The translations under genes were made by a program, and so were the position numbers. From Intestinimonas butyriciproducens (GTDB taxonomy: Bacteria > Bacillota > Clostridia > Oscillospirales > Butyricicoccaceae), in assembly GCF_016901775.1 (NCBI RefSeq), contig NZ_JACJKW010000004.1:1-64000 (forward strand): a stretch of DNA of 64,000 nucleotides, written 5' to 3'. Below are positions 1-55,633 of this stretch, one piece after another (within the stretch, counting starts at the first letter, position 1; each line of letters opens with the position of its first letter). A model generated the notes under the pieces. That model saw only the letters and a program-made list of their open reading frames with translations. It ran no database searches and was not told the DNA's origin.

Positions 1-3
1 CAT

Positions 4-157
4 GTTTTCGCTTGTCCCCTTTGCGGGACGAGAAAACGGCCATGAAATCGGTATCATAACCGCTCTGTGGTTATGATACCACAAAGCGAAGCGAAGTGGT
101 ATATTGGCCGTGTTTTCGGTTGTCCCCTTTGTGGGACGAGAAAACGGCCATGAAATC
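4..157 (+). repeat. Two direct copies (4-49 and 112-157) of a 46-bp hairpin-forming unit, GTTTTCG[C/G]TTGTCCCCTTTG[C/T]GGGACGAGAAAACGGCCATGAAATC. The 62-bp spacer contains a perfect 12-bp inverted repeat, GGTATCATAACC / GGTTATGATACC. The window starts inside copy 1, so more copies may lie upstream.
   Basis: Read directly. The two copies differ at 2 positions. Nested stems GTTTTC/GAAAAC and GTCCC/GGGAC. Lies in the 5' region of the cupin gene. Confidence 0.7.
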
Positions 158-256
158 AAGTACCACACAATTCCCCGACGGCACCCCTCTTTTCTTGTGT
201 TTTTCCCTGGAAGAAGCTATACTGGTATTATCATCTTGAGAAAGGAAGATGCCTTT

Positions 257-601
257 ATGATCCGCCGGAAAGAACAGATGCGCACATCGGAAAAGCCCAA
301 CCTGCGGGGTGGGGAGGGCGTGATCCACGCCTACGACCTGCTGGAAAATCCGGAGATGCGGGAAAAGCTGAAGCTGTGCTCCATTCTGACCATTGAGCCG
401 GGCTGCTCCATCGGCGAACATCCTCACGGCCCTGACGCCGAGTTCTATTACCTGCTGGAAGGGGAGCTGGAGATCACAGACAACGGGGAAAAGACCACCT
501 TCCATCCCGGCGATGCCATGTTCACCGCCTGCGGCGAGACCCACAGCGCCAGAAACAACACCCAGAAGGACGCAAAGCTGCTGGCCATCGTCATCGCCTA
601 G
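257..601 (+). CDS. Cupin domain protein (114 aa).
   Basis: ORF track 104..601. Start ATG at 257, preceded by GAGAAAGGAAG as RBS. Sequence is cupin beta-barrel-like (GxHxH...E...H pattern: GEHPHGPDAEFYYLLEGE...GETHSA). Confidence 0.75.
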   Translation: MIRRKEQMRTSEKPNLRGGEGVIHAYDLLENPEMREKLKLCSILTIEPGCSIGEHPHGPDAEFYYLLEGELEITDNGEKTTFHPGDAMFTACGETHSARNNTQKDAKLLAIVIA

Positions 602-612
602 GTCCAGTGCCT

Positions 613-676
613 GGACGGCCATAGTCCGGTGTCCGGACAGCCATAGTCCGTTGTCCGGACGGCCATACTACGGGGC
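613..676. repeat. 22-bp tandem repeat of about 3 units (GGACGGCCATAGTCCGGTGTCC).
   Basis: Read directly in the intergenic region between the convergent cupin and peptidase genes. Confidence 0.7.
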
Positions 677-728
677 TGGGTGCAGGAAAGGACTTGGGTG
701 ATTGTCCCGGGCCTGCCACAATTTAATA

Positions 729-756
729 GAAAAAGCGGCCAAAAGGCCGCTTTTTC
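729..756. terminator. Bidirectional rho-independent terminator (AAAAAGCGGCCaaaaGGCCGCTTTTTC).
   Basis: GC hairpin flanked by an A-run and a T-run, between convergent genes. Confidence 0.7.
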
Positions 757-764
757 TATTATTT

Positions 765-2692
765 CTATTTCAGAGGAATATCCAGGATCTTCAAAAAGGC
801 TTCCGCCATTTCCTGTGAGCCGACTCCCGCCTCCAGCTGGGCCAGGCGAACACATTCTTCCAGCGTGCGCTCCCCGTCCATGGCAAAGAGCAGCAGGGTC
901 TCAAAGAGCATGGCATCGGGGCAGCCTTTCCGGTACTGCTCCTCATAGGCTTTGTAGGCCTTTTTCTTTTCTTCATCTTCCCGGGGCATATCCTCCAGAT
1001 GGATAATGGGGCCTTTCAAGGTGCGATGGGGCACTTTCCCCGCCTTTTTCTCCGGCGCCGGGGGATTGCCCAGTGCTTCCAGAGTTTCTTCCATGGCCCG
1101 GCGCAGGCTTCCCTCTGCGTGCAGGCCTATTTCTTTGGCCGCCGGGCACAGCCGGATGGCGTCTTTGCAGCCCCGCACATAGAACTGGGTGATGGCTCTG
1201 GCCTTTTCGCCCAGAGTGGTTTTGTCCTCCCCCATCAGACAGGCATCGCCCAGCCGCTCCATTTCTTCCCCATGGCGTCCTTTCAGCCGCCACAAAGTGC
1301 GCCCCGCCTCTTCTTCCCCGAAATTGGCCAGGCAGTAGGCAAAGCCTGCGGCAATGCACAAGGAGTTGTGGAGCATCTGGGGGTCCACCTGCTCCGGTGT
1401 ATCCCCGCTGGTGTGATAATAGAGATCCGGCCACTGACCCAGCATGGGACAGGGAATGCCCACCAAAGGATCGGAAAGGATCATGTGGTCGCTTCCCGGA
1501 ACAAAGGGGCCGATAAAGCTGTTGAACAGCGGAGCCATGTTCCCCTCCTTCAGCACTTCGCACTGGCTCTTCACCTGGCGCAGCACCACATCGCTGAGGG
1601 CGGTGACCAGAGGGGAGGAACTCCAGGGCTGATCCGACAGGGTGAGGGGGCCATAGCCCCGGCTCTGCCGTCCGCCCACCATGTCCAGATTGATGGCTCC
1701 CACAATGCGGCAAAGCTCCCCTTCCCGCTGGCAGAGATAGGGATAGGTGCCGCTGAACTCGGGCAGAAGGCACACCCGGATCCCCCGCTGAAGAGGTGGC
1801 AGTTCCCCCCGCTCTATCAGCTCATGGAGGGTGCGCAGCAGCTCCATGGCCACGGCGCAGCCGCTGGCGTTGTCATTGGCCGAAGGCCGGGGATGGCACA
1901 GGTGGGCCAGCACCAGCACCTCTTCCCCGGTCTCGCCGGGGAGGAAAGCTTCCACCACTTCCAGCTCACCAGGATACAATCTGGTGTCCATTTTGCACAG
2001 GGCCTGGGGATATTTCTCCTCTTCTCTCATTTCCCGGCAAAGCTCCGCCAGGGCGTCTCCCTGGCGAGGCGTGAGGACGAAGCCGAAGATGTGCGGCTCT
2101 TTTTCCCAGTCCTTCCACCAGAAGGAGGTATAATTGCGGATGTCGTACAGATCCTCCCGGCTGCGCACTCCCGGCACTTCCCGCAGGTAATCGGTGACAA
2201 AGCCCACCGCCCCTTTTTCGGTGAAGGCCCAGTCCATATAGGCTGCAAAAGGCTCCCGGAGGAAAAGCAGCTTGCCCTCAAGGTCCACGCCCTCATAATC
2301 CTCTTTCCGGCTGCCCTTGTCCATAAGGACGATGTCCAGGGGCTGGCTGGAATAATCACAGGGGCCGCTCTTCTGCATCACCGAGGTGGCGCAGGTGTCA
2401 AAGTCCGCCAGCCGCTGCCGTCCCTTTTCCGTCAGCAGATCCAGCCAGCCTCCCTTGCAGTCCCACTCCAGGAAGGAACGCTGCCCCCAATACCATTGCT
2501 TTTCGTCAAAGGGATAGGAAATCACCCGGGCGCAGATCCCCTGGCTCTCCAGCACCTGCTGGCAATGGTGGGCCGCCTGACGCAGACCGGTGGAGCACTG
2601 GATGCGGTGGAAGGATGCGATCTCCCTCACCCGCTGATGGGCCCGCTCTCCACTGCCGAAGGAGCTGATCTTTTCCAGATATTCTTTCACTG
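765..2692 (-). CDS. M28-family or DUF4910 aminopeptidase-like protein (about 642 aa).
   Basis: ORF 765..2855. Start trimmed to the GTG at 2692, which is preceded by AGGAGGGG. The upstream part of the ORF reads through repeat copy A. Metallopeptidase-like motif HLCHPRPSANDNASGCAVAMEL. Confidence 0.7.
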
Positions 2693-2749
2693 TGGTCCCC
2701 TCCTTGCTCTTGATGAAAAAGGCCCGGTTTGCTCCGGGCCTTTCCCGTG

Positions 2750-2941
2750 TGGAAAAAGGGACAAAAGCCACTTTTTCGAGTTTTTGCAAGGGTCTGGCGG
2801 CGAGCCGCCGCTCCCATTTTTTCTTTGCTCCGGTAGGTTGTGTACGCCCGGGCAAAAAATGTTTGCCTGCGGGGTCACCCCGCCCTTGAGAAGTGTAAAA
2901 ACCGCCGCACGGGTCACCGGTTTTTACAAATTGATGAAAGA
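2750..2941 (-). repeat. Terminator-associated intergenic repeat, copy A (long form, inverted orientation).
   Basis: Homologous to copies at 12327-12514, 14204-14329, 49276-49400 and 51891-52025. Shares the 95-bp internal module with copy B. Confidence 0.8.
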
Positions 2942-7243: not shown

Positions 7244-9257
7244 TTATTCGTTGCCCACATACCGATAGAGCCAGCTCTTGATCTCCTTCAGGCGGCGCAG
7301 GCGGTGACGGGGCTTGCCCGAACGGGACAGCTCGTGGTTCTCCCCTTTGAAAATGCACATCCGGGAGGGAACGCCGTTGAGCTGCAAAGCGGTATACATG
7401 GAAATGCCTTCGGGCATCCAGCACCGGTAGTCCTCTGTGCTGTTGATGAAGAGGGTGGGGGTGCGGGCCTTGTCGGCAAATTTCATGGGGGACTGATCCC
7501 ACATCTTGTACATATCGGTGAAGGGCGTGGCCTGGACTTCCCGCAGGTCAAAGCTGAGGCCGATGTCGCAGGTGCCGAACAGGGTGATCCAGCTGGCGAT
7601 GGACCGCTGGGAAGCTGCTGCCTTGAACCGGTGGGTGTGGCCGATGATCCAGTTGCACATAAAGCCGCCGTAGGAGCCGCCCAGCACGCCCAGACGCTCC
7701 TTGTCGATGGCCGGGTACTTTTCCAGCACCACATCCACAAACTGCATCAGATCCTCATAATCGATGGTGCCATAGCGGCCGGCGATGTTGGCAAACTTGT
7801 CCCCCCTTCCACCGGAACCGGTGGGATTGCAGAACATGACAAAGCAGCCGTCAGAAGCCATGGTCTGCATCTGGTGGAAGAAGCAGGTGCCGAAGGTGGC
7901 CCGGGGGCCGCCGTGGATGTCCAGCATGGCGGGATAGGTCTTGCTTTCATCGTAGTCCTTGGGCAGAAGCACCCAGCCTTCGATGGTATTCCCCTCTTTG
8001 TTCACAAAGGTCAGGGGCTGGGGTGTGGCCACATATTTGCCCTTGAGAGCGTTTTTATTGAAGCCGGTGACTTTTTTCTGGCTTCCGTCCTTTTCCAGGC
8101 GGTAAACTTCCTGCAGATCGTTTCCGGCAAAGCCCACAGTGAAGATTTTGCCATCCCGGATGTCGAAAAAGTCCACCGAACAGTCTTCCCCGGTGAGCAC
8201 CTCCGGCTCTTTCCCGGGCTGCCAACGGTAGAGCACGCTGTAATGGGCCCGGGCCGAGACATAATAGAGGGCATCCTCACAGGCTTTCATGTGGATACCG
8301 CTGCCATAGCGGCAGTCGCTGCCGGGATTTCCGCCGAAGTCCTCGGTTTCGGCCACCGGCACGGCCATAACAGGCTCTCCTCCTGCAAGGGGGATGGAAT
8401 AGAGGTTTGTGCCCCCGAAGCGCATCCAATCCTCCCCGTGTTCCTCGGCGGAGAAGATCAGCTGATCGCCCACAAAGGCCAGCGAACCCAAACCGCTGAA
8501 TCGGTCGGGCCCGAACAGCTCTTTTCTTTCCCCGGTTTCCAGATCGTAGAGGTACAGGCCGGAGTGCATATTCAGCTTTTTGTCGGTAAGGGCCCCGGCA
8601 TAGGCCAGAGTCTTTCCGTCGGGGGACAGGGTGAAACCCCGGGTTTCAAACATGGGCTCGGTCACAGGCCGGAGTTTCTTCCGCTTCACATCATACAGCC
8701 ACAGCCGGTTGCGCTTTTTGTTCACAAAGCCCCGGCCGTTGAACCAGAAGGGAGCCTCGTCACATACCTGGTAGTCCTTTTCCTCCTGGTAGTCCAGAAG
8801 GGCACAGCGGCGTTTTTCCCCCTTGAGGGATTCAAAATCCGGCCTGGCGTTGTCGTGGACAGCGGTGATGAGATAGAGCCCTTCCCGCACCAGATGGGCG
8901 CTGGCTCCCTGCAAAGGCAGGCGGAAGCACTCCCGGCTTTCGCCTCCGTCCAGGGGCAGCTGGTAAAAGACGGTGAGCAGTTCTCCATTTTCCACCCGCT
9001 TTTTGTCCTTCTTTTCCCGGATGGCAGGGAAAATGACGCTTTTGTCCCCAAAGAGGGCAAAGCTGCGCACATCCCCATGGGAGGTCAGGGGCCGGGCCGC
9101 GCCGGTTTTGCAATCCACCAGATACAGGTCGGAGCGGTAGCAGTTGTCCTCCAGATCGGCCTTGGCGGCGATCACCAGGGCCCGGTCATCGGGAAGCAGC
9201 TTGAGTCCGGACAAAAATTTATAATCCTGCAAGTCTGTGTCCAGTATTCGTTCCAAG
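7244..9257 (-). CDS. S9-family serine peptidase (prolyl oligopeptidase / acylaminoacyl-peptidase-like), paralog 1.
   Basis: GGSYGGFM nucleophile motif and beta-propeller N-terminus. The TTG start at 9257 (RBS AGGAGGG) was chosen because LERILDTDL aligns with MERIQIDDF of the paralog. Confidence 0.8.
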
Positions 9258-9272
9258 AAAATCCCTCCTATC

Positions 9273-9312
9273 GCAGGGCAGCTTGCCCTCGAAAGGGGCA
9301 AGCTGCTGCGCT
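9273..9312. other. GC-rich hairpin (GCAGCTTGCCC-loop-GGGCAAGCTGC) between the GNAT and S9 genes; possible terminator or attenuator.
   Basis: Inverted repeat read directly. The T-rich run lies on the plus side only. Confidence 0.35.
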
Positions 9313-10169: not shown

Positions 10170-12167
10170 TTACTTCATGTAATGGTCAAACCAGTTTGTG
10201 ATCTCCCGCAGACGGCGCACCCGGTGCTTGGGTTTGCCGGAACGGGACAGCTCATGGTTCTCCCCGTGGAACAGGCACAGACGGGTGTCCACACCGTGCA
10301 TCCGCAGGGCGGTCATCATCTGAATGGCATCGGCCATCCAGCAGCGATAGTCCTCATCGGACTGGATGAACAAAGTGGGGGTCTTGGCCTTGTCGGCATA
10401 CTTCAGGGGAGAGTTGTTCCACATCCGGTCCATGTTGGTCCAGGGATCGGCCATCATGGCGGACAGGTTGTGGTAGTAGCCGATGTCGGTGGTCAGGCAC
10501 TTGCTCAGGTAGTTGGAGATGGAACGCTGGGAAGCCACCGCCGCAAACCGGTGGGTGTGGCCCACGATCCAGTTGGCCATAAAGCCGCCATAGGAGCCGC
10601 CGGCCATGCCCACACGCTTCTCATCGATCTGGGGATATTTTTCCAGCACCTTGTCGGTGAACTCCATCAGGTCGTTATAATCCCAGACGCCGTAGTGCTC
10701 GCCGCGGATATTGGCAAAGTCGTTGCCCTTGCCGTCGCCGCCACGGGGGTTGCAATAAAAGACGAAATAGCCCTCGTTGGCCCAGAACTGCATCTCATGG
10801 AAGAAGGTCTCGCCGTAAACCGCCTTGGGGCCGCCGTGGACATTGAGGATCGCAGGATACTTCTTGGAAGGATCGTAGTCCACCGGCTCCAGGATCCAGC
10901 CGTCGATGTCCACGCCGTCTTTATCGGTAAAGTGCATATATTTGGGCTCTACCACGCTGTGGGTCTGGAGGTATTCCTGGTTGAAGCTGGTCAGGCAGGT
11001 TTCCTCGCCGCCTTCCTTGCAGCAATAGATCTCCTGCAGGCCATTACAGCGCATACCCACATAATAGAAGGTATCGCCCACCTTCTGGAAGCAGTCCACG
11101 CTGCCGTGGACATCGGGGGAAATGGTCTTGACCTGGCCCTTTTCATCCAGCTTGCGGATGAAAGAATTGAAGCCCATGGTCTCCAGGAAGTAGAAACCGT
11201 CCTTTTCGCCCTTGTTGGAAACGCCTCCGCCATAGCGGCAGTCGCTGCCCACACTGGAGCCCAGGCTGGTGTCCAGATCGGCAAGCTCCTGCATCTTGCC
11301 GGTATTCACATCCACATTGAAGAAGATGGGATTTTCGCTGGAGCCATAGCGCTGGCCGGTGGTGGCGGCCATGAGGATGTGATCGCCTACGAAATCGGCG
11401 GCCTGGACCCGGTATTTGCCGCCCAGATCCATTTCACGGCTCTCGCCGCTCTTCAGATCATACACAAACAACCGGCTGACCTGCTCGTCCATCCACTGAT
11501 AGTCGCTGCCATAGTACAGAGCCAGACCCAGCTCCTTGCTGTATTTCAGGCCGGTGACCTGCATATAGGGGCCGGTGATGGCCTTCTGCTCATCCTTGCA
11601 GATGTCGCAGAGATAGACACGGCCGCGCTTTTTGTTGACGATGCCCTTGCCGTTGAACCAGAAGGGAAGCTCATCGAAGATCTCGTAGTCCTTTTCTTCC
11701 CGGATCTTCTCCATCATCTCTTCCTTCTCGGCCCCATCCAGACCTTCGGTGGTCATGGCATAGTTGTCATACTGGCCGATGCACAGGAATTTGCCGTCGC
11801 CCAGCACGATCAGGTTACTGGCGGGGAAAGGCAGGGCAAAATATTCCTCGGCTTCGCCGCCCTGGGTGGAGATCTTGTTGAACACGGTGTAATGGAAGCC
11901 TTCGTCGGCCATGGCCTTATATTTTCCGGTGCGGTCGCCGGGGAAGAGGATATGCTCTTCATCCAGCCAGTACAGGCTCTTTTCTGCGCCGCCGCTTGTC
12001 AGCTTGCGCACTTTTCCATTTTCCAGCAGGTGGATATGGGACACATATTTGTTGGCCTTCACCTGGGCCTGTGTGACCACAAAGGCCAGCTTCTCGCCGC
12101 TGGGGGAAGCCTGCAGCTGGGACAGCATTTTCACCTGACTGAAATCGTCGATCTGAATCCGTTCCAT
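10170..12167 (-). CDS. S9-family serine peptidase, paralog 2.
   Basis: GGSYGGFM motif. 665 aa. GGAGG RBS. Confidence 0.85.
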   Translation of the reverse strand: MERIQIDDFSQVKMLSQLQASPSGEKLAFVVTQAQVKANKYVSHIHLLENGKVRKLTSGGAEKSLYWLDEEHILFPGDRTGKYKAMADEGFHYTVFNKISTQGGEAEEYFALPFPASNLIVLGDGKFLCIGQYDNYAMTTEGLDGAEKEEMMEKIREEKDYEIFDELPFWFNGKGIVNKKRGRVYLCDICKDEQKAITGPYMQVTGLKYSKELGLALYYGSDYQWMDEQVSRLFVYDLKSGESREMDLGGKYRVQAADFVGDHILMAATTGQRYGSSENPIFFNVDVNTGKMQELADLDTSLGSSVGSDCRYGGGVSNKGEKDGFYFLETMGFNSFIRKLDEKGQVKTISPDVHGSVDCFQKVGDTFYYVGMRCNGLQEIYCCKEGGEETCLTSFNQEYLQTHSVVEPKYMHFTDKDGVDIDGWILEPVDYDPSKKYPAILNVHGGPKAVYGETFFHEMQFWANEGYFVFYCNPRGGDGKGNDFANIRGEHYGVWDYNDLMEFTDKVLEKYPQIDEKRVGMAGGSYGGFMANWIVGHTHRFAAVASQRSISNYLSKCLTTDIGYYHNLSAMMADPWTNMDRMWNNSPLKYADKAKTPTLFIQSDEDYRCWMADAIQMMTALRMHGVDTRLCLFHGENHELSRSGKPKHRVRRLREITNWFDHYMK

Positions 12168-12276: not shown

Positions 12277-12326
12277 ACAAACTGCCCGAAACCTATCCTG
12301 CAACAAGAGATGGTTTACTCTATTCT

Positions 12327-12514
12327 TCATCCATCCGCAAAAAGCCGCGACCTGTGCGTGGCTTTTTGCACCTATCAAGGGCGGGGTGACCCCGCAGGCA
12401 AACATTCTTTGCCCGGGCGTACACAACCTACCGGAGCAAAGAAAAAATGGGAGCGGCGGCTCGCCGCCAGACCCTTGCAAAGACTCGAAAAAGTGGCTTC
12501 CGCCACTTTTTCGA
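12327..12514 (+). repeat. Terminator-associated intergenic repeat, copy B (long form).
   Basis: Contains the 5' hairpin GCAAAAAGCC...GGCTTTTTGC and the 3' hairpin GAAAAAGTGGC...GCCACTTTTTC. Shares a 95-bp internal module with copy A. Confidence 0.8.
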
Positions 12515-12522
12515 AACGCTGA

Positions 12523-14098: not shown

Positions 14099-14203
14099 GC
14101 CAAAGAAAAGGAAAAGACAAAGGCAAAAACAAAAACGAAGACGAAGAAAAAAGAGAGGGGGAGGGTGAAGAAAAAGAAAAAAGGTCTCCCTTCCCTATCC
14201 CTA

Positions 14204-14329
14204 ATCAATCTGCAAAAAGCCGGGACCTGTGCGTGGCTTTTTGCACCTCTCAAGGGGCAAGTGTGCGCCAAAGGCGTGCATGCAGGCCCTTGCAAAAACT
14301 CGAAAAAGTGGCTTTTGCCACTTTTTCGA
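14204..14329 (+). repeat. Terminator-associated intergenic repeat, copy C (short form).
   Basis: Same end hairpins as copy B. Downstream of the MATE gene. Confidence 0.8.
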
Positions 14330-14428
14330 CACCCCTCCCAGGACGAAAACCACGCCTGGGAGGGAGTACACTGATGGCATAGGCCGGAGCCTTCCCAGCG
14401 GGAGCCATGGGAAAAGGCCCGGGAAAAC

Positions 14429-47803: not shown

Positions 47804-47804
47804 C

Positions 47805-47906
47805 GGGCGGAGTGCCTCCGCTGCCATACTGCGCAGCGCCAAGTCTTGTGAAGGAAACTTCCTTGCTTCACGCTGCGCGGCGGCATTTGCTGCACATGGC
47901 TTCACC
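47805..47906. repeat. Structured direct repeat, unit 1 (about 102 bp), upstream of the gltX promoter.
   Basis: About 85% identical to unit 2 at 47984-48085. Contains hairpin GGCGGAGTGCCTCCGC and a long imperfect hairpin with an inner stem AAGGAA/TTCCTT. Confidence 0.75.
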
Positions 47907-47983
47907 TCAACTAGAGCGGCGTACCACCGGGGGCATACTGGCCCTCCCCGAACTCCAGTGGCACAGGAGCCTGTCATTTGGTC

Positions 47984-48085
47984 GGGCAGAGTGCCTCCGC
48001 TGTCACACTGCGCAGCGCCAAGTCTTGTGGAGAAAACTTCTCTATATCACGCTGCGCAGCGGCATTTGCTGCACAAGGTTTTACC
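47984..48085. repeat. Structured direct repeat, unit 2; the inner stem is changed to GAGAA/TTCTC (compensatory).
   Basis: Begins about 38 nt after the ribokinase stop. Confidence 0.75.
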
Positions 48086-48122
48086 TTAGTGCAAGCTGCT
48101 GCACCTCCCAGCCAGGGGAGGG

Positions 48123-49275: not shown

Positions 49276-49400
49276 TTCAATCTGCAAAAAGCGGCGACCT
49301 GTGCGTCGGTTTTTGCACCTCTCAAGAGACCGGTGTGCGCCAAGGGCGTGCGCCGTGCCTCTTGCAAAAACTGGAAAAAGCGGCTAAGCCGCTTTTTCGA
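49276..49400 (+). repeat. Terminator-associated intergenic repeat, copy D (short form). Its end hairpins carry covarying substitutions.
   Basis: The 3' hairpin GAAAAAGCGGC..GCCGCTTTTTC differs from GAAAAAGTGGC..GCCACTTTTTC of the other copies by a compensatory pair. Confidence 0.8.
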
Positions 49401-50720: not shown

Positions 50721-51860
50721 TTGGAAAATACCGCTCTGGGGGACATGACCTGGTTCCCCGCCGCCGATGACTATCTGATGATCTGCAGCCCGTCGGGCCG
50801 CATCCTCTTTGTCACAAGCAGCCTGCGTTTTCAGCTGGAAGAGGACCTGGTAGGCCGCTCTCTCAACGACATTTTCCCCGATTCCCTGGCCGCTCAGATC
50901 GTCACCCTGGCCCATGAGGGCCAGAGCCATTCCTTTCACACAAAGCTCCAGGGCAAAGCCGTCCGGTGCAGTATGACCCCCAAAGAGGGGAATATGCTCA
51001 TCACCGTCTTTTTCGCCCAGGAAAACCATCCCCCGGCCATGGCCCTCAGCGCCGCCGAGCTGCTCAGCCGGGAAATCAGCAGCAGCCTGGGCACCATGTT
51101 TGCCGCCTGGGATGCCCTGCCCCCCGCCCAGGACCAAAAAAGCCAATACGCCAAAAGCGTGCTGCGCCAAGGGATGTACCGGCTGATGCGCATGGGCCGC
51201 AATCTGCTGGACTGCGCCCGGGCCGAAAGCGGCCAGCTGGAGCTGAATGTGCGCCAGAGTGATCTGTGCCAGCTTGTGCGGCAGCTGTGCCAGCGGGTAG
51301 AGCCCATGGCCGAAGAAGTGGGCATTCCCTTTTCCTGGGACTGCCCGGAGGAACCCCTGTTCTGCCCCTTCGACCGGGAGCGGGTGGAGCGGGTGATCCT
51401 GGGTCTGATTTCCAATTCCATGAAATACACCCGGCAGAAAAACCAGATGCGGCTGGTGCTCACCAAACGGGAGGACAACGCCGTGATCATCCTGGCCGAC
51501 CGGGGCCGGGGCATTCCCGCTTCGGTGCTGCCCCATCTTTTCAGCCGTCCCCCCGAATCCTCCCTGTCCCGGGGACTGATGGTGGGAGGGGCCGGCTACA
51601 GCCTGATGCTGGCCCGGGCGGTGATGCTGCTCCACGGCGGCACCTGCGTCATTTCCAGCGTTCCCGATGAGGGCACCACCGTCACCCTGTCCCTGCCCCT
51701 GCACCCTTCCACCCCCTATCTGTCCCTGGGCGCTCCGCCCCCGGACTATGCCAGCGGCTTCGACCATGTGCTGCTGGAACTCTCCACCGCCTTGCCCGCT
51801 TCTTTCTATAAAGAGGAGCCCAAAAAATCAAAGTCCTATCCTGCTTCCCCGGAGCAATAA
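50721..51860 (+). CDS. Orphan cytoplasmic histidine-kinase-like protein (PAS-like N-terminus, DHp-like region, intact HATPase_c). The H-box His appears to be replaced by Arg.
   Basis: TTG start with AAGGAGG RBS. N box NSMKYT, G1 box DRGRGIP, G2 box GGAGYSLMLA. The DHp region reads LSREISSSLGTM where SHELRTPL is expected. Confidence 0.7.
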   Translation: MENTALGDMTWFPAADDYLMICSPSGRILFVTSSLRFQLEEDLVGRSLNDIFPDSLAAQIVTLAHEGQSHSFHTKLQGKAVRCSMTPKEGNMLITVFFAQENHPPAMALSAAELLSREISSSLGTMFAAWDALPPAQDQKSQYAKSVLRQGMYRLMRMGRNLLDCARAESGQLELNVRQSDLCQLVRQLCQRVEPMAEEVGIPFSWDCPEEPLFCPFDRERVERVILGLISNSMKYTRQKNQMRLVLTKREDNAVIILADRGRGIPASVLPHLFSRPPESSLSRGLMVGGAGYSLMLARAVMLLHGGTCVISSVPDEGTTVTLSLPLHPSTPYLSLGAPPPDYASGFDHVLLELSTALPASFYKEEPKKSKSYPASPEQ

Positions 51861-51887
51861 AAAAAGAGCCTTTCGGCTCTTTTTTTA
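51859..51887. terminator. Terminator AAAAAAAGAGCCtttcGGCTCTTTTTTT (left copy of a duplicated 34-bp segment).
   Basis: The same sequence recurs at 52066-52102 on the other side of repeat copy E. Confidence 0.75.
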
Positions 51888-51890
51888 ACA

Positions 51891-52025
51891 TGTCGAAAAA
51901 GTGGCCTGGGCCACTTTTTCGAGTTTTGCAAGAAGCTGCATGCACGCCTGTGGCGCACACTGGCTTCTTGATCGGTGCAAAAAGCCACGCACAGGTCGCG
52001 GCTTTTTGCAGATTGATGAAAGATA
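51891..52025 (-). repeat. Terminator-associated intergenic repeat, copy E (short form, inverted).
   Basis: Reverse complement matches copies C and D end to end. Confidence 0.8.
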
Positions 52026-52072
52026 AAACAAAAGAATTTCTCACATGATATGTTTTTTCATCGTCTACGCAA

Positions 52073-52101
52073 TAAAAAAGAGCCTTTCGGCTCTTTTTTT
52101 A
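52073..52101. terminator. Second copy of terminator AAAAAAGAGCCtttcGGCTCTTTTTTT (tatD side).
   Basis: Direct duplicate of 51859-51887. Confidence 0.75.
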
Positions 52102-52106
52102 TTGCG

Positions 52107-52874
52107 TTATGGGATATTGAAAAATCGCTTGCCGTTTTCCAGGGTGATCCGGGCCGCTTCCTCCGTGGAGATGCCCTTGATGTTGCCGATGCACTCGGCC
52201 ACCTTCCACACCTTGGAGGAATCGTTCCGCTCCCGGCGGAAGGGCTCCGGGGTGAGGTAGGGGGAGTCGGTTTCGATCATCACCCGGTCCAGGGGCAGCC
52301 ACTGGAGCACTTCCAGAGCCCGGCGGGCGTTTTTATAGGTGATGACTCCAGTGAAGGAGAGCATCCAGCCCATCTTCACCAAAGTTTTGGCATCCTCCAG
52401 ACTGCCGGAATAGCAGTGGAACACACCTCGCACCCCCGGGTGCTCCCGCACCATCTCCATGCTGTCTCCATGGGCTTCCCGGTCGTGCACCACCACCGGA
52501 AGCCCCAGCTTTTCCGCCAGCTCCATCTGGAGGGCAAAGACTTTCTTCTGGTGCTCTTTGGGGGGATTGTCCTCCCAGTGATAGTCCAGGCCGATCTCTC
52601 CGATGGCCTTGACTTTTTCGTCCCGGGCCAGCTTTTCCAGCTCGTCCATCTGGCTCTCTTCAAAATCCCCGCAGTCCGAAGGGTGAATGCCCACGGCGGC
52701 ATAGACAAAGGGGAAGGTATGGGCCAGTTCCACCGCCTTGCGGGAGGAGGGCAGGTCACAGCCCGGGTTGACGATCAGATCCACGCCCTGCTGGGGCAAA
52801 CCGGCCAGCACCTCCAGCCGGTCTTTGTTGAAGGCTCCCGAGTCGTAGTGGGCGTGGGTATCAAAGACCCCCAT
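52107..52874 (-). CDS. tatD: TatD-family metal-dependent hydrolase (DNase).
   Basis: N-terminal HAHxD and typical TatD motifs. Its start overlaps the metG stop. Confidence 0.85.
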   Translation of the reverse strand: MGVFDTHAHYDSGAFNKDRLEVLAGLPQQGVDLIVNPGCDLPSSRKAVELAHTFPFVYAAVGIHPSDCGDFEESQMDELEKLARDEKVKAIGEIGLDYHWEDNPPKEHQKKVFALQMELAEKLGLPVVVHDREAHGDSMEMVREHPGVRGVFHCYSGSLEDAKTLVKMGWMLSFTGVITYKNARRALEVLQWLPLDRVMIETDSPYLTPEPFRRERNDSSKVWKVAECIGNIKGISTEEAARITLENGKRFFNIP

Positions 52875-54823
52875 CAGGACAAATGGGACCCGGGCACGGC
52901 GCCGTCGGCCAGCACCACCCGCACATCGTTTTCCCCGCAGGTGGCCGACAGGATCATGCCGCAGCTGTCCAGCCCCATCATCTTCCGGGGAGCCAGGTTG
53001 CTCACCACCACCACATTGTGGCCGATCAGGTCCTCCGGCTCATACCACTGGGCGATGCCCGAAAGCACCTGACGCTTTTCATAGCCCAGATCCAGCTCAA
53101 AGCGCAGCAGTTTCTTGCTCTTCTTCACCTTTTCACAGTGGAGCACCTTGGCCACCGTCAGTTCCACCTTGGCAAAATCGTCATAGACGATGGTGTCCTT
53201 GGGTTCGTGAGGGGGCAGGGGCTCCTTCTTTTCCTCCTGGGGGGCATGGGCGGCCTGGAAGGCAGCCACTTCCTCCAGCTTCTTTTCGGCATCCATCCGG
53301 GCGAAGAGGATCTCGGCCTGGCCCACCTGATGGCCTTCCGGCAGCGCGCCGAAGGAGCTGAGACTGTCAAAGTCGGTTTTATCGGTGTTCAGCTGAGCGT
53401 AGATCTTCTGAGCGGCGTCGGGAAGGAAGGCCTCCAGCAGCACGGCGCCGAAGCGGATGCTTTCCAGCAGGTTATAGAGCACGGTGTCCAGTCTTGCCTT
53501 TTTGCTCTCGTCCTTGCCCAGGACCCAGGGCATGGTCTCGTCGATATACTTGTTGGCCCGGCGGAAGATGGCAAAGACCTCGTCCATGGCGTCGCCCACC
53601 TTCAGCTGGTCCATGGCCCGCCGCACCTTTTCGGGGGCCTCCAGGCACACCTGCTTCAGTTCCTCGTCCACCGGCTCGCACACATCATGGCTGCCCATGA
53701 CGCCGTTCTGGTACCGGTGGCACATGGTCACCGTCCGGTTGACCAGGTTGCCCAGGATGTTGGCCAGGTCGCTGTTGGTGCGCTCGATGAGCAGCTCATA
53801 GGTGATGGTGCCGTCGTTGGCAAAGGGCATCTCGTGGAGCAGGTAATAGCGCACAGCGTCCACACCGAACAGCTCTACCAGGTGATCGGCATAGATCACA
53901 TTGCCCTTGGATTTGCTCATTTTGCCCTCGCCCACCAGCAGCCAGGGATGGCCGAAGACCTGGCGGGGCAGCTCCTCGCCCAGGGCCATAAGGAAGATGG
54001 GCCAATAAATGGTGTGGAAACGGAGAATGTCCTTGCCGATGAGATGCACATCGGCAGGCCAGAACTTTTTGTATTCCTCTGTGCTCTCCCCTTCCGGCTC
54101 ATAGCCCAGGAAGGTGATATAGTTGGTCAGAGCATCCAGCCACACATAGACCACATGGCCCGGGTCAAACTCCACCGGGATGCCCCAGCTGAAGGAGGTG
54201 CGGGAAACGCACAGATCCTGAAGGCCGGGCTTGAGGAAATTGTTGACCATCTCATTTTTCCGGGATTCCGGCTGGATGAACTCCGGATGGTCTTCGATAT
54301 ATTGCATCAGCTTGTCGGCGTATTTGCTCATGCGGAAGAAATAGGCTTCCTCCTTGGCCTTCTGCACCGGGGCGCCGCAATCGGGGCATTTGCCGTCTTT
54401 CAGCTGGCTTTCGGTGAAGAAGGACTCGCAGGGGGTGCAATACCAGCCCTCGTAGCTTCCTTTATAGATATCGCCCTGGTCATACAGACGCTTGAAGATC
54501 TGCTGGACCTTCTTTTCGTGCATGGGATCGGTGGTGCGGATAAACCGGTCATAGGAGGTGTGGAGCACATCCCAGTTGCGGCGCACTTCGGCGGCCATCT
54601 CGTCCACGAAGGCCTGGGGGGTCATGCCGGCCTTTTCGGCCTTCTCCTGGATCTTCTGGCCGTGCTCGTCGGTGCCCGTCTGAAAGAGCACATCGTAGCC
54701 GTCCTTCCGCTTATAGCGGGCGATGGCGTCGGCCAGCACGATCTCATAGGTGTTGCCCACATGGGGTTTGCCCGAGGTGTAGGCGATGGCCGTGGTCAAA
54801 TAGTACTTTCCTTTGCTGTTCAT
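52874..54823 (-). CDS. metG: Methionine--tRNA ligase (with C-terminal tRNA-binding domain).
   Basis: HVGN (HIGH-class) and KMSKS motifs. Zn knuckle CPDCG. 649 aa. GGAGG RBS. Confidence 0.9.
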   Translation of the reverse strand: MNSKGKYYLTTAIAYTSGKPHVGNTYEIVLADAIARYKRKDGYDVLFQTGTDEHGQKIQEKAEKAGMTPQAFVDEMAAEVRRNWDVLHTSYDRFIRTTDPMHEKKVQQIFKRLYDQGDIYKGSYEGWYCTPCESFFTESQLKDGKCPDCGAPVQKAKEEAYFFRMSKYADKLMQYIEDHPEFIQPESRKNEMVNNFLKPGLQDLCVSRTSFSWGIPVEFDPGHVVYVWLDALTNYITFLGYEPEGESTEEYKKFWPADVHLIGKDILRFHTIYWPIFLMALGEELPRQVFGHPWLLVGEGKMSKSKGNVIYADHLVELFGVDAVRYYLLHEMPFANDGTITYELLIERTNSDLANILGNLVNRTVTMCHRYQNGVMGSHDVCEPVDEELKQVCLEAPEKVRRAMDQLKVGDAMDEVFAIFRRANKYIDETMPWVLGKDESKKARLDTVLYNLLESIRFGAVLLEAFLPDAAQKIYAQLNTDKTDFDSLSSFGALPEGHQVGQAEILFARMDAEKKLEEVAAFQAAHAPQEEKKEPLPPHEPKDTIVYDDFAKVELTVAKVLHCEKVKKSKKLLRFELDLGYEKRQVLSGIAQWYEPEDLIGHNVVVVSNLAPRKMMGLDSCGMILSATCGENDVRVVLADGAVPGSHLS

Positions 54824-54940
54824 TTTCTTTCCTCCATGGCGCCTTTGCTTCTTCCGGCGAATGAGCCGGCGCGCCGGATATAGTGTGGGTCAAAGGCCTA
54901 CGCAGCCTTTGCCTGCGCATTTTATCATACCATCCCCCAT

Positions 54941-54969
54941 AAAAAAACACAAGCGGCGTGACGCCGCTG
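54941..54969 (-). terminator. Intrinsic terminator inside the metG upstream region (AGCGGCGucacGCCGCU plus U-run), followed by a candidate promoter TTGTGT ... TATGAT.
   Basis: Read on the minus strand. Could be the end of the upstream gene or a leader attenuator. Confidence 0.5.
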
Positions 54970-54970
54970 T

Positions 54971-55024
54971 CATACTTTCTTTGCCTTGGTGAACACAACC
55001 GTCCCTGGCTCTATTGCACAGCGG
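54971..55024. repeat. 54-bp direct repeat, unit 1 (CATACTTTCTTTGCCTTGGTGAACACAACCGTCCCTGGCTCTATTGCACAGCGG).
   Basis: 48 of 54 positions identical to unit 2 at 55066-55119. Between them lies the palindrome GCGGGGgCGCCCCGC. Confidence 0.75.
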
Positions 55025-55065
55025 GGGAGCGCAGTACGGGTGCAGCGTCAGCGGGGCGCCCCCGC

Positions 55066-55119
55066 GGCCATACTTTCTTGGCCCTGGTGAACACAACTGT
55101 CCCTGGCTCTACCGCACAG
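55066..55119. repeat. 54-bp direct repeat, unit 2; overlaps the last codons of the upstream hypothetical gene.
   Basis: See unit 1. Confidence 0.75.
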
Positions 55120-55633
55120 CGGAAACGCCTTTTTGGCCGATGGCTTTTCCCAAGGCAAGCAGGCTTTCCAGAAGCTCCGGGTTACGGCTCTGATAAAAGT
55201 CCTCCCATTCCGTTTCCCACTGGCCCTCTGTGTTTTTCAGCTTCCACACCTTCACCTGTGGCCGCTCCGCCCCGATCAAGGACAGCGCCCAGGCGTCCTT
55301 TCCCTGGCGCATCACAAAGCGAGTAGGGAAATACATCTGTCCCACTTCGGTCATCCGATGGGGCCAGGTGCCCAAAGAAAGATACAGATCCAGCAGATCG
55401 TCATACCGAAGATCTTCTGCCAGCGCCCGGATGGTGCCCTGGGCCCCTTTCCCCGAAACCGGCACGGTGATTCCTCTGTCCACATAGACATACTGAGTTT
55501 CCTGGAAAGGGGAAAGCCCCAGCTTTTCCGTGGGGCCGCCTTCTGCCCAGGAAAACAGGCCTACCACTCCCAGAATTATCGCTGTCAGCAGTACAAGACG
55601 CACAAAAAACCGTTTTCCAATATAGCGGATCAT
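55109..55633 (-). CDS. Hypothetical membrane-anchored protein (174 aa).
   Basis: N-terminal TM segment. No family recognised. Confidence 0.55.
   Translation of the reverse strand: MIRYIGKRFFVRLVLLTAIILGVVGLFSWAEGGPTEKLGLSPFQETQYVYVDRGITVPVSGKGAQGTIRALAEDLRYDDLLDLYLSLGTWPHRMTEVGQMYFPTRFVMRQGKDAWALSLIGAERPQVKVWKLKNTEGQWETEWEDFYQSRNPELLESLLALGKAIGQKGVSAVR

What the first reader, a model, noticed from the sequence alone, without database searches (positions are those of the whole stretch)
54941..55119. metG upstream region: 54-bp x2 direct repeat, GC palindrome and internal terminator, but no canonical T-box
Firmicute metG is usually T-box regulated (established knowledge). Instead, two 54-bp direct repeats (89% identical, 95-bp period; containing GGTGAACACAAC[C/T]GTCCCTGG) flank the palindrome GCGGGGgCGCCCCGC. 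On the minus strand they are followed by a terminator (AGCGGCGucacGCCGCU plus U7) and then a promoter-like TTGTGT-17-TATGAT ahead of metG. No GGGUGGNACCGCG T-box core or S-box core is visible. The repeats overlap the 3' end of the upstream hypothetical gene, so they may be 3'-UTR elements, protein-binding sites or a novel leader.
Basis: partly seen in the sequence, partly recalled or inferred. Interest (0 to 1): 0.55.

Follow-up and report, generated by a model that had tools for sequence, protein, structure and literature searches.

The report
Variable tandem hairpin repeat before metG
The repeat upstream of metG is real, but it is a strain-variable tandem array built from a hairpin repeat scattered through this gut bacterium's genome; it ends the upstream gene's transcript and shows no sign of being a methionine-sensing leader.

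Summary
There are two direct copies of 73 nt (85% identical, 98-bp period), each ending in a GC hairpin. Only the last hairpin is followed by U7. An extended -10 promoter and metG follow.

The "novel leader" reading is not supported.
- The array lies upstream of the predicted metG promoter, in the 3' UTR of a 174-aa gene. Each unit begins with that gene's last 13 nt, including the stop codon.
- Unit number and content vary between strains, from 1 to at least 3 units, some with a ~100-nt insert. The promoter and leader next to the array are 98-100% identical and fixed in length.
- The 3' half of the unit occurs at 10 or more other intergenic sites, in both orientations relative to flanking genes, and is nested in other mosaic repeats.
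- The terminal hairpin covaries strongly: 4 of 6 pairs show double changes.
- No Rfam family matches, while the same T-box model detects 7 of 15 related metG leaders.

Best reading: a REP/BIME-, BOX- or MIRU-VNTR-like repeat family amplified locally, acting as a terminator and 3'-end hairpin array. It is a new member of a known kind and of low interest.

The parts
55109..55633 (-). Upstream gene: a 174-aa hypothetical protein with a hydrophobic N-terminus, no Pfam match, and relatives only within this species-level group.
   Evidence: ORF list; no Pfam family; only 6 protein clusters, all at least 88% identical. Its last 13-14 nt including the stop codon form the start of each repeat unit.
55050..55122 (-). 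Repeat copy B, the first unit on the transcribed strand. It holds the ORF end and stop codon, the 48-nt core (AGCCAGGGACAGTTGTGTTCACCAGGGCCAAGAAAGTATGGCC) and the hairpin GCGGGG-GCG-CCCCGC (55065..55051). No U-tract follows.
   Evidence: nhmmer core hit 55102..55049; hairpin covariation.
55025..55049 (-). Spacer of the 98-bp unit (TGACGCTGCACCCGTACTGCGCTCC). It is a degenerate, inverted copy of the same kind of hairpin module. The intact form GCAGCG-TGA-CGCTGC + ACC-CATACT is seen in L089 and L096, and the reverse complement lies next to a dispersed copy in L086.
   Evidence: Reading. The relation to the module is my inference from sequence comparison.
54952..55024 (-). Repeat copy A, the second unit. 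It has the same core and ends in the hairpin AGCGGCG-UCA-CGCCGCU (54968..54952).
54941..54968 (-). Intrinsic terminator of the upstream gene: the copy A hairpin plus U7 (54947..54941). With the A-rich CAAAGAAAG tract on its 5' side it looks bidirectional.
   Evidence: The terminator scan lists it on the minus strand, and a weaker site on the plus strand at 54953-54970.
54924..54952 (-). Predicted metG promoter: -35 TTGTGT (54952..54947), a 17-nt spacer formed partly by the terminator U-tract, and an extended -10 TGG-TATGAT (54932..54924).
   Evidence: Read from the sequence. Identical in window, L002 and L089; L004 differs only in the spacer. Also conserved in L087 and L092. Not listed by the stricter consensus scan. 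Function is inferred.
54824..54923 (-). metG 5' leader of about 95 nt with SD GGAGG. It is 98-100% identical and fixed in length across strains. No Rfam match.
52874..54823 (-). metG (methionyl-tRNA synthetase, 649 aa), followed by tatD (52107-52874).
   Evidence: Pfam tRNA-synt_1g, Anticodon_3, tRNA_bind and TatD_DNase.
12380..12432 (-). Dispersed relative of the unit's 3' half (GGTTGTGTACGCCCGGGCAAAGAATGTTTGCCT plus hairpin GCGGGG-TCA-CCCCGC). It is nested inside composite repeat E2 (12326-12518).
2832..2885 (+). Second dispersed relative of the unit's 3' half, inside composite repeat E1 (2746-2938). Its orientation relative to the co-directional flanking genes is opposite to that of E2.

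Best explanation
The feature is a local tandem amplification (98-bp period, a VNTR or minisatellite) of a module from a species-restricted family of hairpin-bearing intergenic repeats. The basic building block is a conserved linear head (...GGCAAAGAAAGTATG), 3 nt, and a 6-bp GC stem with a 3-nt loop.

At this locus the array lies in the 3' UTR of the 174-aa gene. Every unit begins with that gene's last 13 nt and stop codon, so the copies arose in place by slippage or unequal recombination rather than by transposition (inferred).

Function (inferred): the last hairpin plus U7 terminates the upstream transcript. Internal hairpins lacking a U-tract could at most pause polymerase or shield the 3' end from exonucleases, as described for REP elements. 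metG would then be transcribed from its own invariant extended -10 promoter, whose spacer is the terminator's T-tract.

The array is not a ligand- or tRNA-sensing leader of metG. Any effect on metG would be limited to how much read-through it lets pass, which would differ between strains with the number of units.

Shown here: the repeat itself, its variability between strains, the dispersal of its core, the hairpin covariation and the absence of any known RNA family. Inferred: termination, stabilisation, promoter use and the mode of amplification.
For: 1. Anatomy and position: the order on the minus strand is ORF end, unit B, unit A, U7, -35/-10, leader, metG.

2. Variation between strains at the same locus:
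- one unit plus a second hairpin in L004
- one unit plus an unrelated 17-bp hairpin terminator in L092
- two units in the window
- two units, the second carrying a ~100-nt insert, in L002 and L003
- three units in L087
- a truncated first unit plus two or three more in L089 and in long-read L096

3. The stop-to--10 distance is 95, 134, 173, 239 or 268 nt, while the promoter-to-ATG stretch is fixed at 112 nt and 98-100% identical. Flanking DNA matches at roughly 85-98% between these strains.

4. The species' GTDB representative contig ends 82 nt before metG. This is suggestive of a repeat-induced assembly break but was not checked.

5. Dispersal of the core:
- It recurs at window 12380-12432 and 2832-2885.
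- It occurs in metagenome contigs at other loci: L086 with two clear copies, L090 with three, plus L091 and L093.
- The head plus perfect-hairpin module occurs 7 times in the window against about 0.4 in Markov simulations.

6. E1 and E2 are in opposite orientation relative to co-directional genes.

7. The hairpin is under structural constraint: 98.8% of cells are paired, 4 of 6 pairs show double changes, and 0 of 500 shuffles reach the observed score.

8. No Rfam family matches in the window or in the long variant. As a positive control, the T-box model finds 7 of 15 related metG leaders.
Against: - No transcript data exist, so termination, promoter use and any stabilising effect are untested.
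- The complete 98-bp unit, and the 5' part of its core (AGCCAGGGAC...), were seen only at the metG locus. A locus-specific role of that part is therefore not excluded.
- Predicted folds of the units are no more stable than shuffled sequence (z = +0.8 to -0.7).
- The MFE fold of unit A pairs the spacer (GACGCUGC) with the terminator's 5' arm, an antiterminator-like alternative. I attribute this to the two hairpin modules being related near-palindromes, but it could be functional.
- Genome-wide copy number could not be measured.
Confidence: 0.75

Rival explanations
1. The repeats are a novel tandem riboswitch or attenuator leader controlling metG. Transcription would start upstream of the array, each unit would sense a signal such as Met, SAM or tRNA-Met, and this would decide between the terminator and an antiterminator.
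For: - The last unit ends in a genuine terminator directly before metG.
- The MFE fold of unit A shows an alternative pairing of the spacer with the terminator's 5' arm.
- About half of the related metG genes carry a T-box, so leader control of metG exists in this group.
Against: - Unit number varies from 1 to 3 or more, with insertions and different terminal hairpins between strains.
- The first unit starts inside the upstream ORF.
- The core is dispersed at unrelated loci and in both orientations.
- A conserved promoter lies downstream of the terminator.
- Rfam gives no hit.
- Fold stability is not significant.
- Only the 6-bp hairpin shows covariation; no aptamer-like fold emerges.
Confidence: 0.04
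2. The units are binding sites for a DNA-binding regulator, with direct repeats acting as an upstream activating or operator region of the metG promoter.
For: - They are direct repeats immediately upstream of the -35 element.
- The linear part (GGTTGTGT...GGCAAAGAAAGTATG) is better conserved than the hairpin stem.
Against: - The distance and phase between the last unit and the -35 change between strains. L004 and L089 have an extra hairpin there, L092 a different 17-bp hairpin, and L002 and L096 a ~100-nt insert.
- The same core lies at 3' ends of unrelated genes.
- Compensatory changes in the stem point to single-strand hairpin formation rather than duplex recognition.
Confidence: 0.05
3. The units are, or give rise to, small RNAs derived from the 3' UTR of the 174-aa gene and acting in trans, with the conserved single-stranded head as a seed.
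For: - Each unit has a conserved linear stretch followed by a stable hairpin, and the last also has U7, which is the typical anatomy of a 3' sRNA end.
- The hairpin covaries.
Against: - Dispersed copies occur in both orientations relative to transcription.
- Many copies lack a U-tract.
- Copy number is unstable between strains.
- No expression data or candidate targets were examined.
Confidence: 0.08
4. The family is an active non-autonomous mobile element (REPIN- or MITE-like), mobilised by a transposase encoded elsewhere. The metG array would be a secondary amplification of one insertion.
For: - The family is species-restricted and dispersed in intergenic DNA, with nested and mosaic arrangements.
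- Hairpin modules occur as inverted pairs, as in the E1/E2 insert, whose fold has z = -2.3.
- The conserved head next to a variable hairpin resembles REP architecture.
- An element X copy at 51891-52025 is flanked by a duplicated 34-nt terminator.
Against: - No transposase or RAYT was identified. None is called within about 10 kb of the locus, and the rest of the genome could not be searched.
- No clear terminal inverted repeats or target-site duplications surround the metG units.
- Each metG unit carries host ORF sequence, so amplification here was local.
Confidence: 0.3

Closest known systems
REP / BIME elements of Escherichia coli and REPINs of Pseudomonas
   Same: - Short GC-rich imperfect palindromes with a conserved linear head.
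- Confined to extragenic DNA.
- Occur singly, as inverted pairs and in mosaic clusters with other motifs.
- Location varies between strains.
- Described roles are terminator or attenuator and stabiliser of the upstream mRNA (bioRxiv 10.64898/2026.03.23.713779; PMC3333891, listed).
   Different: - The head is AGTATG-N3, not GTAG.
- The stem is only 6 bp with a 3-nt loop, and its sequence itself differs between copies.
- The host is an uncultured gut Clostridia lineage.
- No RAYT was found or could be looked for.
- Genome-wide copy number is unknown.
BOX elements of Streptococcus pneumoniae (boxA-boxB(n)-boxC)
   Same: - A modular interspersed repeat in a Firmicute in which an internal module is tandemly repeated a variable number of times.
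- Extensive secondary structure.
- Species-restricted and judged parasitic rather than a dedicated regulator.
- Can sit next to T-box leaders (PMC3049150).
   Different: - No sequence similarity.
- Here the tandem unit is 98 bp and includes host ORF sequence.
- The whole array was seen at one locus only; only sub-modules are dispersed.
MIRU-VNTR loci of Mycobacterium tuberculosis (from memory: Supply et al. 1997, Mol Microbiol 26:991; not checked here)
   Same: - Tandem repeats of 46-101 bp in intergenic regions between co-directional genes.
- Copy number varies between strains.
- Units overlap the stop codon of the upstream gene.
- The family is dispersed over many loci.
   Different: - MIRUs are not built around GC hairpin-plus-head modules.
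- MIRUs are proposed to carry small coupled ORFs; the units here show no conserved ORF.
T-box leader (RF00230) of Firmicute aminoacyl-tRNA synthetase genes
   Same: It lies upstream of an aaRS gene and ends in an intrinsic terminator.
   Different: - There is no covariance-model hit even at E<=10.
- There is no T-box core, Stem I or specifier loop.
- It lies upstream of the promoter rather than between promoter and gene.
- It is variable between strains.

Membership tests
T-box leader (RF00230) | A covariance-model match at or above the gathering score (93 bits). | tested here: not met
   No hit at gathering in the window, none at E<=10 in 54700-55300, and none in the long variant L002 3450-3920. 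As a positive control, the same model scores 96-116 bits in 7 of 15 related metG loci.
T-box leader (RF00230) | Located between the promoter and the regulated gene, with the T-box sequence forming an antiterminator that competes with the terminator. | tested here: not met
   The units lie upstream of the conserved -35/-10. No AGGGUGGNACCGCG-like core is visible. Promoter use is itself unverified.
SAM riboswitches (S-box and related Rfam families) | A covariance-model match. | tested here: not met
   No match at E<=10.
Intrinsic (Rho-independent) terminator | A GC-rich hairpin directly followed by a U-tract on the transcribed strand. | tested here: met
   Copy A has a 7-bp stem with 6 GC pairs, a 3-nt loop and UGUGUUUUUU. 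Copy B's hairpin is followed by GACGCUGC, so the feature is not met for that copy.
REP / BIME / REPIN | Short imperfect palindromes restricted to extragenic DNA and present in many copies per genome. | tested here: inconclusive
   The head-plus-hairpin module occurs 7 times in 64 kb against 0.4 expected. The core is found at 10 or more loci in about 100 kb of available sequence.
REP / BIME / REPIN | A conserved GTAG-type tetranucleotide head adjacent to the palindrome. | tested here: not met
   The head is (A)GTATG-N3. Only the copy at window ~668 reads GTAGTATG.
REP / BIME / REPIN | Occurrence as inverted pairs or mosaic clusters. | tested here: met
   The E1/E2 insert is an inverted pair of hairpin modules around a 10-bp stem. 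Unit hairpin plus inverted spacer hairpin are seen in L089 and L096. Three tandem 22-nt modules lie at window 602-668.
REP / BIME / REPIN | An associated RAYT (Y1 transposase) gene in the genome. | not testable with these tools
   Only the 64-kb window and short contigs are available. No transposase is among the genes called within about 10 kb.
MITE | Terminal inverted repeats and target-site duplications flanking the element. | tested here: inconclusive
   None were recognised around the metG units (and reading). The E1/E2 insert has imperfect inverted arms. The X copy at 51891-52025 is flanked by a duplicated 34-nt terminator, which is atypical for a target-site duplication.
VNTR / minisatellite (MIRU-like) | Head-to-tail units whose number differs between strains at an orthologous locus. 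| tested here: met
   The period is 98 bp. Copy numbers are 2.7 in L087, 2.0 in L089, 2.7 in L096, 2 in the window and 1 in L004 and L092.

The most novel reading that the evidence does not exclude
The AGTATG-N3-hairpin modules could be a previously undescribed REP/REPIN-like mobile family in an uncultured gut Clostridia lineage, mobilised by an unidentified Y1-type transposase. Their tandem expansion and contraction between the 174-aa gene and metG would then act as a strain-specific dial on termination and read-through into an essential aminoacyl-tRNA synthetase gene.
Probability: 0.15. Interest if true: 0.4.

Novelty: new member of a known kind. Interest (0 to 1): 0.17.

Why it matters
The main value is as a caution. 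A tidy-looking pair of repeats with a terminator in front of an aaRS gene is not a riboswitch here but repeat DNA.

The practical points are modest:
- The array is a strain-typing (VNTR) marker for this gut species.
- The species' representative MAG contig ends 82 nt before metG, which suggests the array breaks short-read assemblies.
- Hairpin-repeat families of the REP/BOX type also populate uncultured gut Clostridia, where they supply terminator-like hairpins between genes.

If the family proved mobile or tuned read-through into metG, it would add a Firmicute example to the REP-as-3'-UTR-regulator picture. That would be incremental.

Tried and rejected
- Rfam at gathering and at E<=10 on the window region and on the longer L002 variant gave nothing relevant. 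The only matches were weak snoRNA or frameshift-site hits with E>0.8.
- An exact-motif scan of GTDB genomes with GGTGAACACAACNGTCCCTGG gave 0 hits. The species representative's contig stops short of the array.
- A metG-based search for close relatives failed as a source of comparisons. The next metG is only 71% identical, so no orthologous intergenic region from a sister species was available. BLAST of the units against 80 other metG loci gave no significant hit, the best being E = 0.63.
- The viral contig scan and the phage and plasmid BLAST searches found no match.
- Folding of the 201-nt region and of single units, on either strand, gave z-scores between +0.8 and -0.7, so there is no thermodynamic signal.
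- A small ORF in the units was rejected. The AUG after AAGAAAGU opens different, non-conserved reading frames in copies A and B.
- An integron attC site was rejected because GTTGTGT does not fit GTTRRRY.
- A promoter inside the unit (TTGTGT-18-TATGRC) was rejected as a poor match that is not kept in the dispersed copies.
- A lookup of the 665-aa peptidase for a gene map of the E2 region found no record.

Full report
**1. What is in the sequence**

All genes around the finding are on the minus strand. Their order is:
- a 174-aa hypothetical gene (55633..55109)
- the repeat region
- metG (54823..52874)
- tatD (52874..52107)

The repeat finder reports two direct copies of 73 nt at 54952-55024 and 55050-55122. 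They are 85% identical with a start-to-start spacing of 98. The self-BLAST E-value is 6e-16. A 26-nt core motif matches only these two places in the window, against 0 expected.

Read on the transcribed strand, each copy has three parts:
- the sequence CCGCTGTGC(GG/AA)TAG; in copy B this is the end of the ORF with its stop codon
- a 48-nt core, AGCCAGGGACRGTTGTGTTCACCARGGCMAAGAAAGTATGNNN
- a 6-7-bp GC hairpin with a 3-nt loop

The two hairpins differ by a compensatory change: GCGGGG/CCCCGC against GCGGCG/CGCCGC. Only the second hairpin is followed by U7, and the scan calls it a terminator.

Directly after it come TTGTGT, a 17-nt spacer and TGG-TATGAT, which is an extended -10. A leader of about 95 nt, the SD GGAGG and the metG ATG follow.

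The period is 98 rather than 95, and the "palindrome between the repeats" is simply the hairpin of the first copy.

**2. Known RNA families**

No Rfam family reaches its gathering score anywhere near the region. Nothing relevant appears at E<=10 in 54700-55300 on either strand.

As a positive control, I ran the same library on 15 metG loci from related Clostridia. It found T-box leaders of 96-116 bits immediately upstream of metG in 7 of them. It found none in the other 8, including the nearest relative. Those 8 show short leaders behind ordinary promoters.

A T-box before metG is therefore common but far from universal in this group, and its absence here is not remarkable.

**3. The same locus in other strains**

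The organism is an uncultured human-gut "Clostridiales bacterium". Its metG is 98% identical to that of MAG HRGM_Genome_3370, and the next-best metG is only 71% identical. The 174-aa protein has relatives only within this species-level group.

Contigs carrying the locus were obtained through the protein lookups and a degenerate-motif scan of metagenomes. They show a strikingly plastic region:

| Source | Structure between the stop codon and the metG promoter |
|---|---|
| L004 | one unit plus a second hairpin |
| L092 | one unit followed by an unrelated 17-bp hairpin terminator |
| window, L001 | two units |
| L002, L003 | two units, the second with a ~100-nt insert of further hairpins |
| L087 | three 98-bp units |
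| L089 | a truncated first unit plus two more |
| L096 (long-read) | a truncated first unit plus three more, the last carrying the insert |

L095 has the same 524-nt intergenic gap as L096, but I did not read its sequence.

The distance from the stop codon to the -10 region is 95, 134, 173, 239 or 268 nt. The stretch from the -10 region to the ATG is always 112 nt and 98-100% identical. Flanking DNA matches at roughly 85-98% between these strains.

The representative MAG's contig ends 82 nt before metG. This is suggestive of an assembly break at the repeat, but I did not check it.

In L087 every unit begins with CGCTCTGCAGTAG, the last codons and stop of the upstream gene. The units were therefore copied in place.

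**4. The unit is built from dispersed modules**

BLAST and an nhmmer profile of the 54-nt 3' half of the unit find relatives at two other places in the window: 12380-12432 (-) and 2832-2885 (+). Identity is 77-85%.

There the sequence is nested inside a second dispersed repeat, which I call X. X is about 130 nt long and has three hairpins, two of which are A5-stem-T5 palindromes. Copies lie at 14196-14331, 49277-49400 and 51891-52025. E1 (2746-2938) and E2 (12326-12518) are X copies with their central module replaced.

E1 and E2 lie between co-directional genes but in opposite orientations.

The metagenome scan added two further E-type loci (L091 and L093). It also found copies in unrelated contexts:
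- next to the stop codons of an amidohydrolase-like gene and a thioredoxin-like gene in L086
- on both sides of a small redox-protein gene in L090

The 26-nt "spacer" of the metG units is itself a degenerate, inverted hairpin module. The intact form, GCAGCG-TGA-CGCTGC followed by ACC-CATACT, is seen in L089 and L096. Its reverse complement follows a dispersed copy in L086.

A simple scan for TATG-N2-4-perfect hairpin finds 7 sites in the window against about 0.4 in simulated sequence. They include three tandem 22-nt copies at 602-668 and one at 47807-47828.

None of these repeats occurs around metG in 80 other species. None occurs in viral contigs, phages or plasmids.

**5. Structure**

I aligned 14 distinct copies of the core. 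In this alignment the terminal hairpin is paired in 98.8% of cells. Four of its six pairs show changes on both sides; the stems seen are GCGGGG, GCGGCG, GTGGCG, GCCCAG and GTCCGG. No shuffle out of 500 and no slid register approaches the observed score. The hairpin is clearly maintained.

The rest of the unit shows no such signal. Predicted folds of the 201-nt region and of single units, on either strand, are no more stable than shuffles.

The MFE fold of unit A pairs the spacer with the terminator's 5' arm. I regard this as a by-product of two related near-palindromes lying side by side, but it is the one observation that a leader model could claim.

**6. Interpretation**

The data fit a species-restricted family of hairpin-bearing mosaic intergenic repeats. 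One member, sitting at the 3' end of the 174-aa gene, has been tandemly amplified and keeps expanding, contracting and acquiring inserts.

Mechanistically (inferred):
- The last hairpin plus U7 is the terminator of the upstream gene.
- Internal hairpins without U-tracts may pause polymerase or protect the 3' end, the dual role reported for E. coli REPs (10.64898/2026.03.23.713779).
- metG is driven by its own invariant promoter.

A metG-specific sensor is very unlikely, given the strain variability, the dispersal and the position upstream of the promoter. Mobility of the family (REPIN- or MITE-like) remains open because the genome could not be searched for a transposase.

**7. Comparison with known systems**

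The closest analogues are:
- REP/BIME/REPIN elements, for the head-plus-palindrome architecture, mosaic clusters and terminator/stabiliser roles
- pneumococcal BOX elements, for a Firmicute modular repeat with a variable number of internal modules that was judged parasitic (PMC3049150)
- MIRU-VNTR loci of mycobacteria, for intergenic tandem units overlapping the upstream stop codon with strain-variable number (from memory, not checked here)

It is not a member of the T-box or SAM families; the defining features were tested and not met. REP membership fails on the GTAG head and is untestable for RAYT, so I file it as REP-like in behaviour only.

**8. Verdict**

This is a new member of a known kind of element and of low general interest. 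It has some practical value as a VNTR marker, as a possible cause of assembly breaks, and as an example of repeat-borne terminators in gut Clostridia.

Noticed in passing
window 54824-54952 (-), also L002, L004, L089, L006: The metG promoter and ~95-nt leader are 98-100% identical and fixed in length across strains, although the flanking DNA and the adjacent repeat array vary. The leader holds mutually exclusive hairpins: GCGCAG/CUGCGU against CAAAGGC/GCCUUUG, and the palindrome CCGGCGCGCCGG against CCGGC-UCAUUC-GCCGG. The loop of the last one shows U-CAU, the Met anticodon. An anticodon-arm mimic for MetRS autoregulation, like the thrS operator, is a speculative possibility. The fold z-score is only -0.84.
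   Followed up: partly
window 14196-14331 (+), 49277-49400 (+), 51891-52025 (-); composites at 2746-2938 (+) and 12326-12518 (-): A second dispersed repeat family, which I call X, is about 130 nt long with three hairpins. Two of them are A5-stem-T5 palindromes that look like bidirectional terminators. It lies in intergenic DNA, including between the convergent ends of tatD and a histidine-kinase-like gene. E1 and E2 are X copies whose central module is replaced by an inverted pair of the hairpin modules. It also occurs in the species' representative MAG (L006 5338-5448).
   Followed up: partly
window 51854-51887 and 52069-52101: A 34-nt terminator hairpin (AAAAAAAGAGCCGAAAGGCTCTTTTTTTATTGC) is directly duplicated (97% identical) on both sides of the X copy downstream of tatD. 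This could mean insertion into, or duplication of, a terminator.
   Followed up: no
window 602-668 (-): Three head-to-tail 22-nt modules (TATGGCY-GTCCRG-RCA-CYGGAC) lie after the ...ILDIPLK* ORF and its own terminator hairpin. This is the minimal form of the head-plus-hairpin module. The fold z-score is -2.35.
   Followed up: partly
window 47804-47907 and 47983-48086: A 104-nt repeat pair (86.5% identical, 179-nt spacing) begins with the same hairpin-plus-CATACT module (GCGGAGTGCCTCCGC-TGC-CATACTGCGCAGCG).
   Followed up: no
window 3-49 and 111-157: Two 47-nt copies (96% identical, 108-nt spacing) contain a GTTTTC...GAAAAC stem-loop (GTTTTCTCGTCCCRCAAAGGGGACAASCGAAAAC). They are separated by a perfect 12-bp hairpin (GGTATCATAACC/GGTTATGATACC). 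The pattern runs off the start of the window. The spacing does not fit CRISPR, and there is no Rfam hit.
   Followed up: no
L002 3640-3760, L005 2159-2249, L096 7790-7900: A ~100-nt insert is found in some strains' last unit. It carries an 11-bp hairpin that changes by compensation between strains: CCATGTGTGGC/GCCACACATGG in L002 against CCATGGGTGGC/GCCACCCATGG in L096. It also contains a duplicated GCACTCCGCC motif. There is no Rfam match, and it was not found outside this locus.
   Followed up: partly
L005 1297-2142: In one short metagenome contig, the C-terminal 108 residues of the 174-aa protein are fused in frame to an AA_kinase (carbamate-kinase-like) N-terminus. This is either a chimeric assembly or a real recombination at a shared IRALAEDL-like stretch.
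   Followed up: no
L088 378-2043 versus window 161-2937: In a low-coverage contig, the segment carrying the peptidase-like gene next to E1 is inverted relative to window 161-711. This could be an inversion between repeats or a misassembly.
   Followed up: no
window 7244-9301 (-) and 10170-12167 (-): Two paralogous genes for S9-peptidase-like proteins (my reading of the translations; not run against Pfam) lie about 1 kb apart. They are 69% identical at the DNA level over 718 nt. A gene I read from its translation as acetyltransferase-like lies between them.
   Followed up: no
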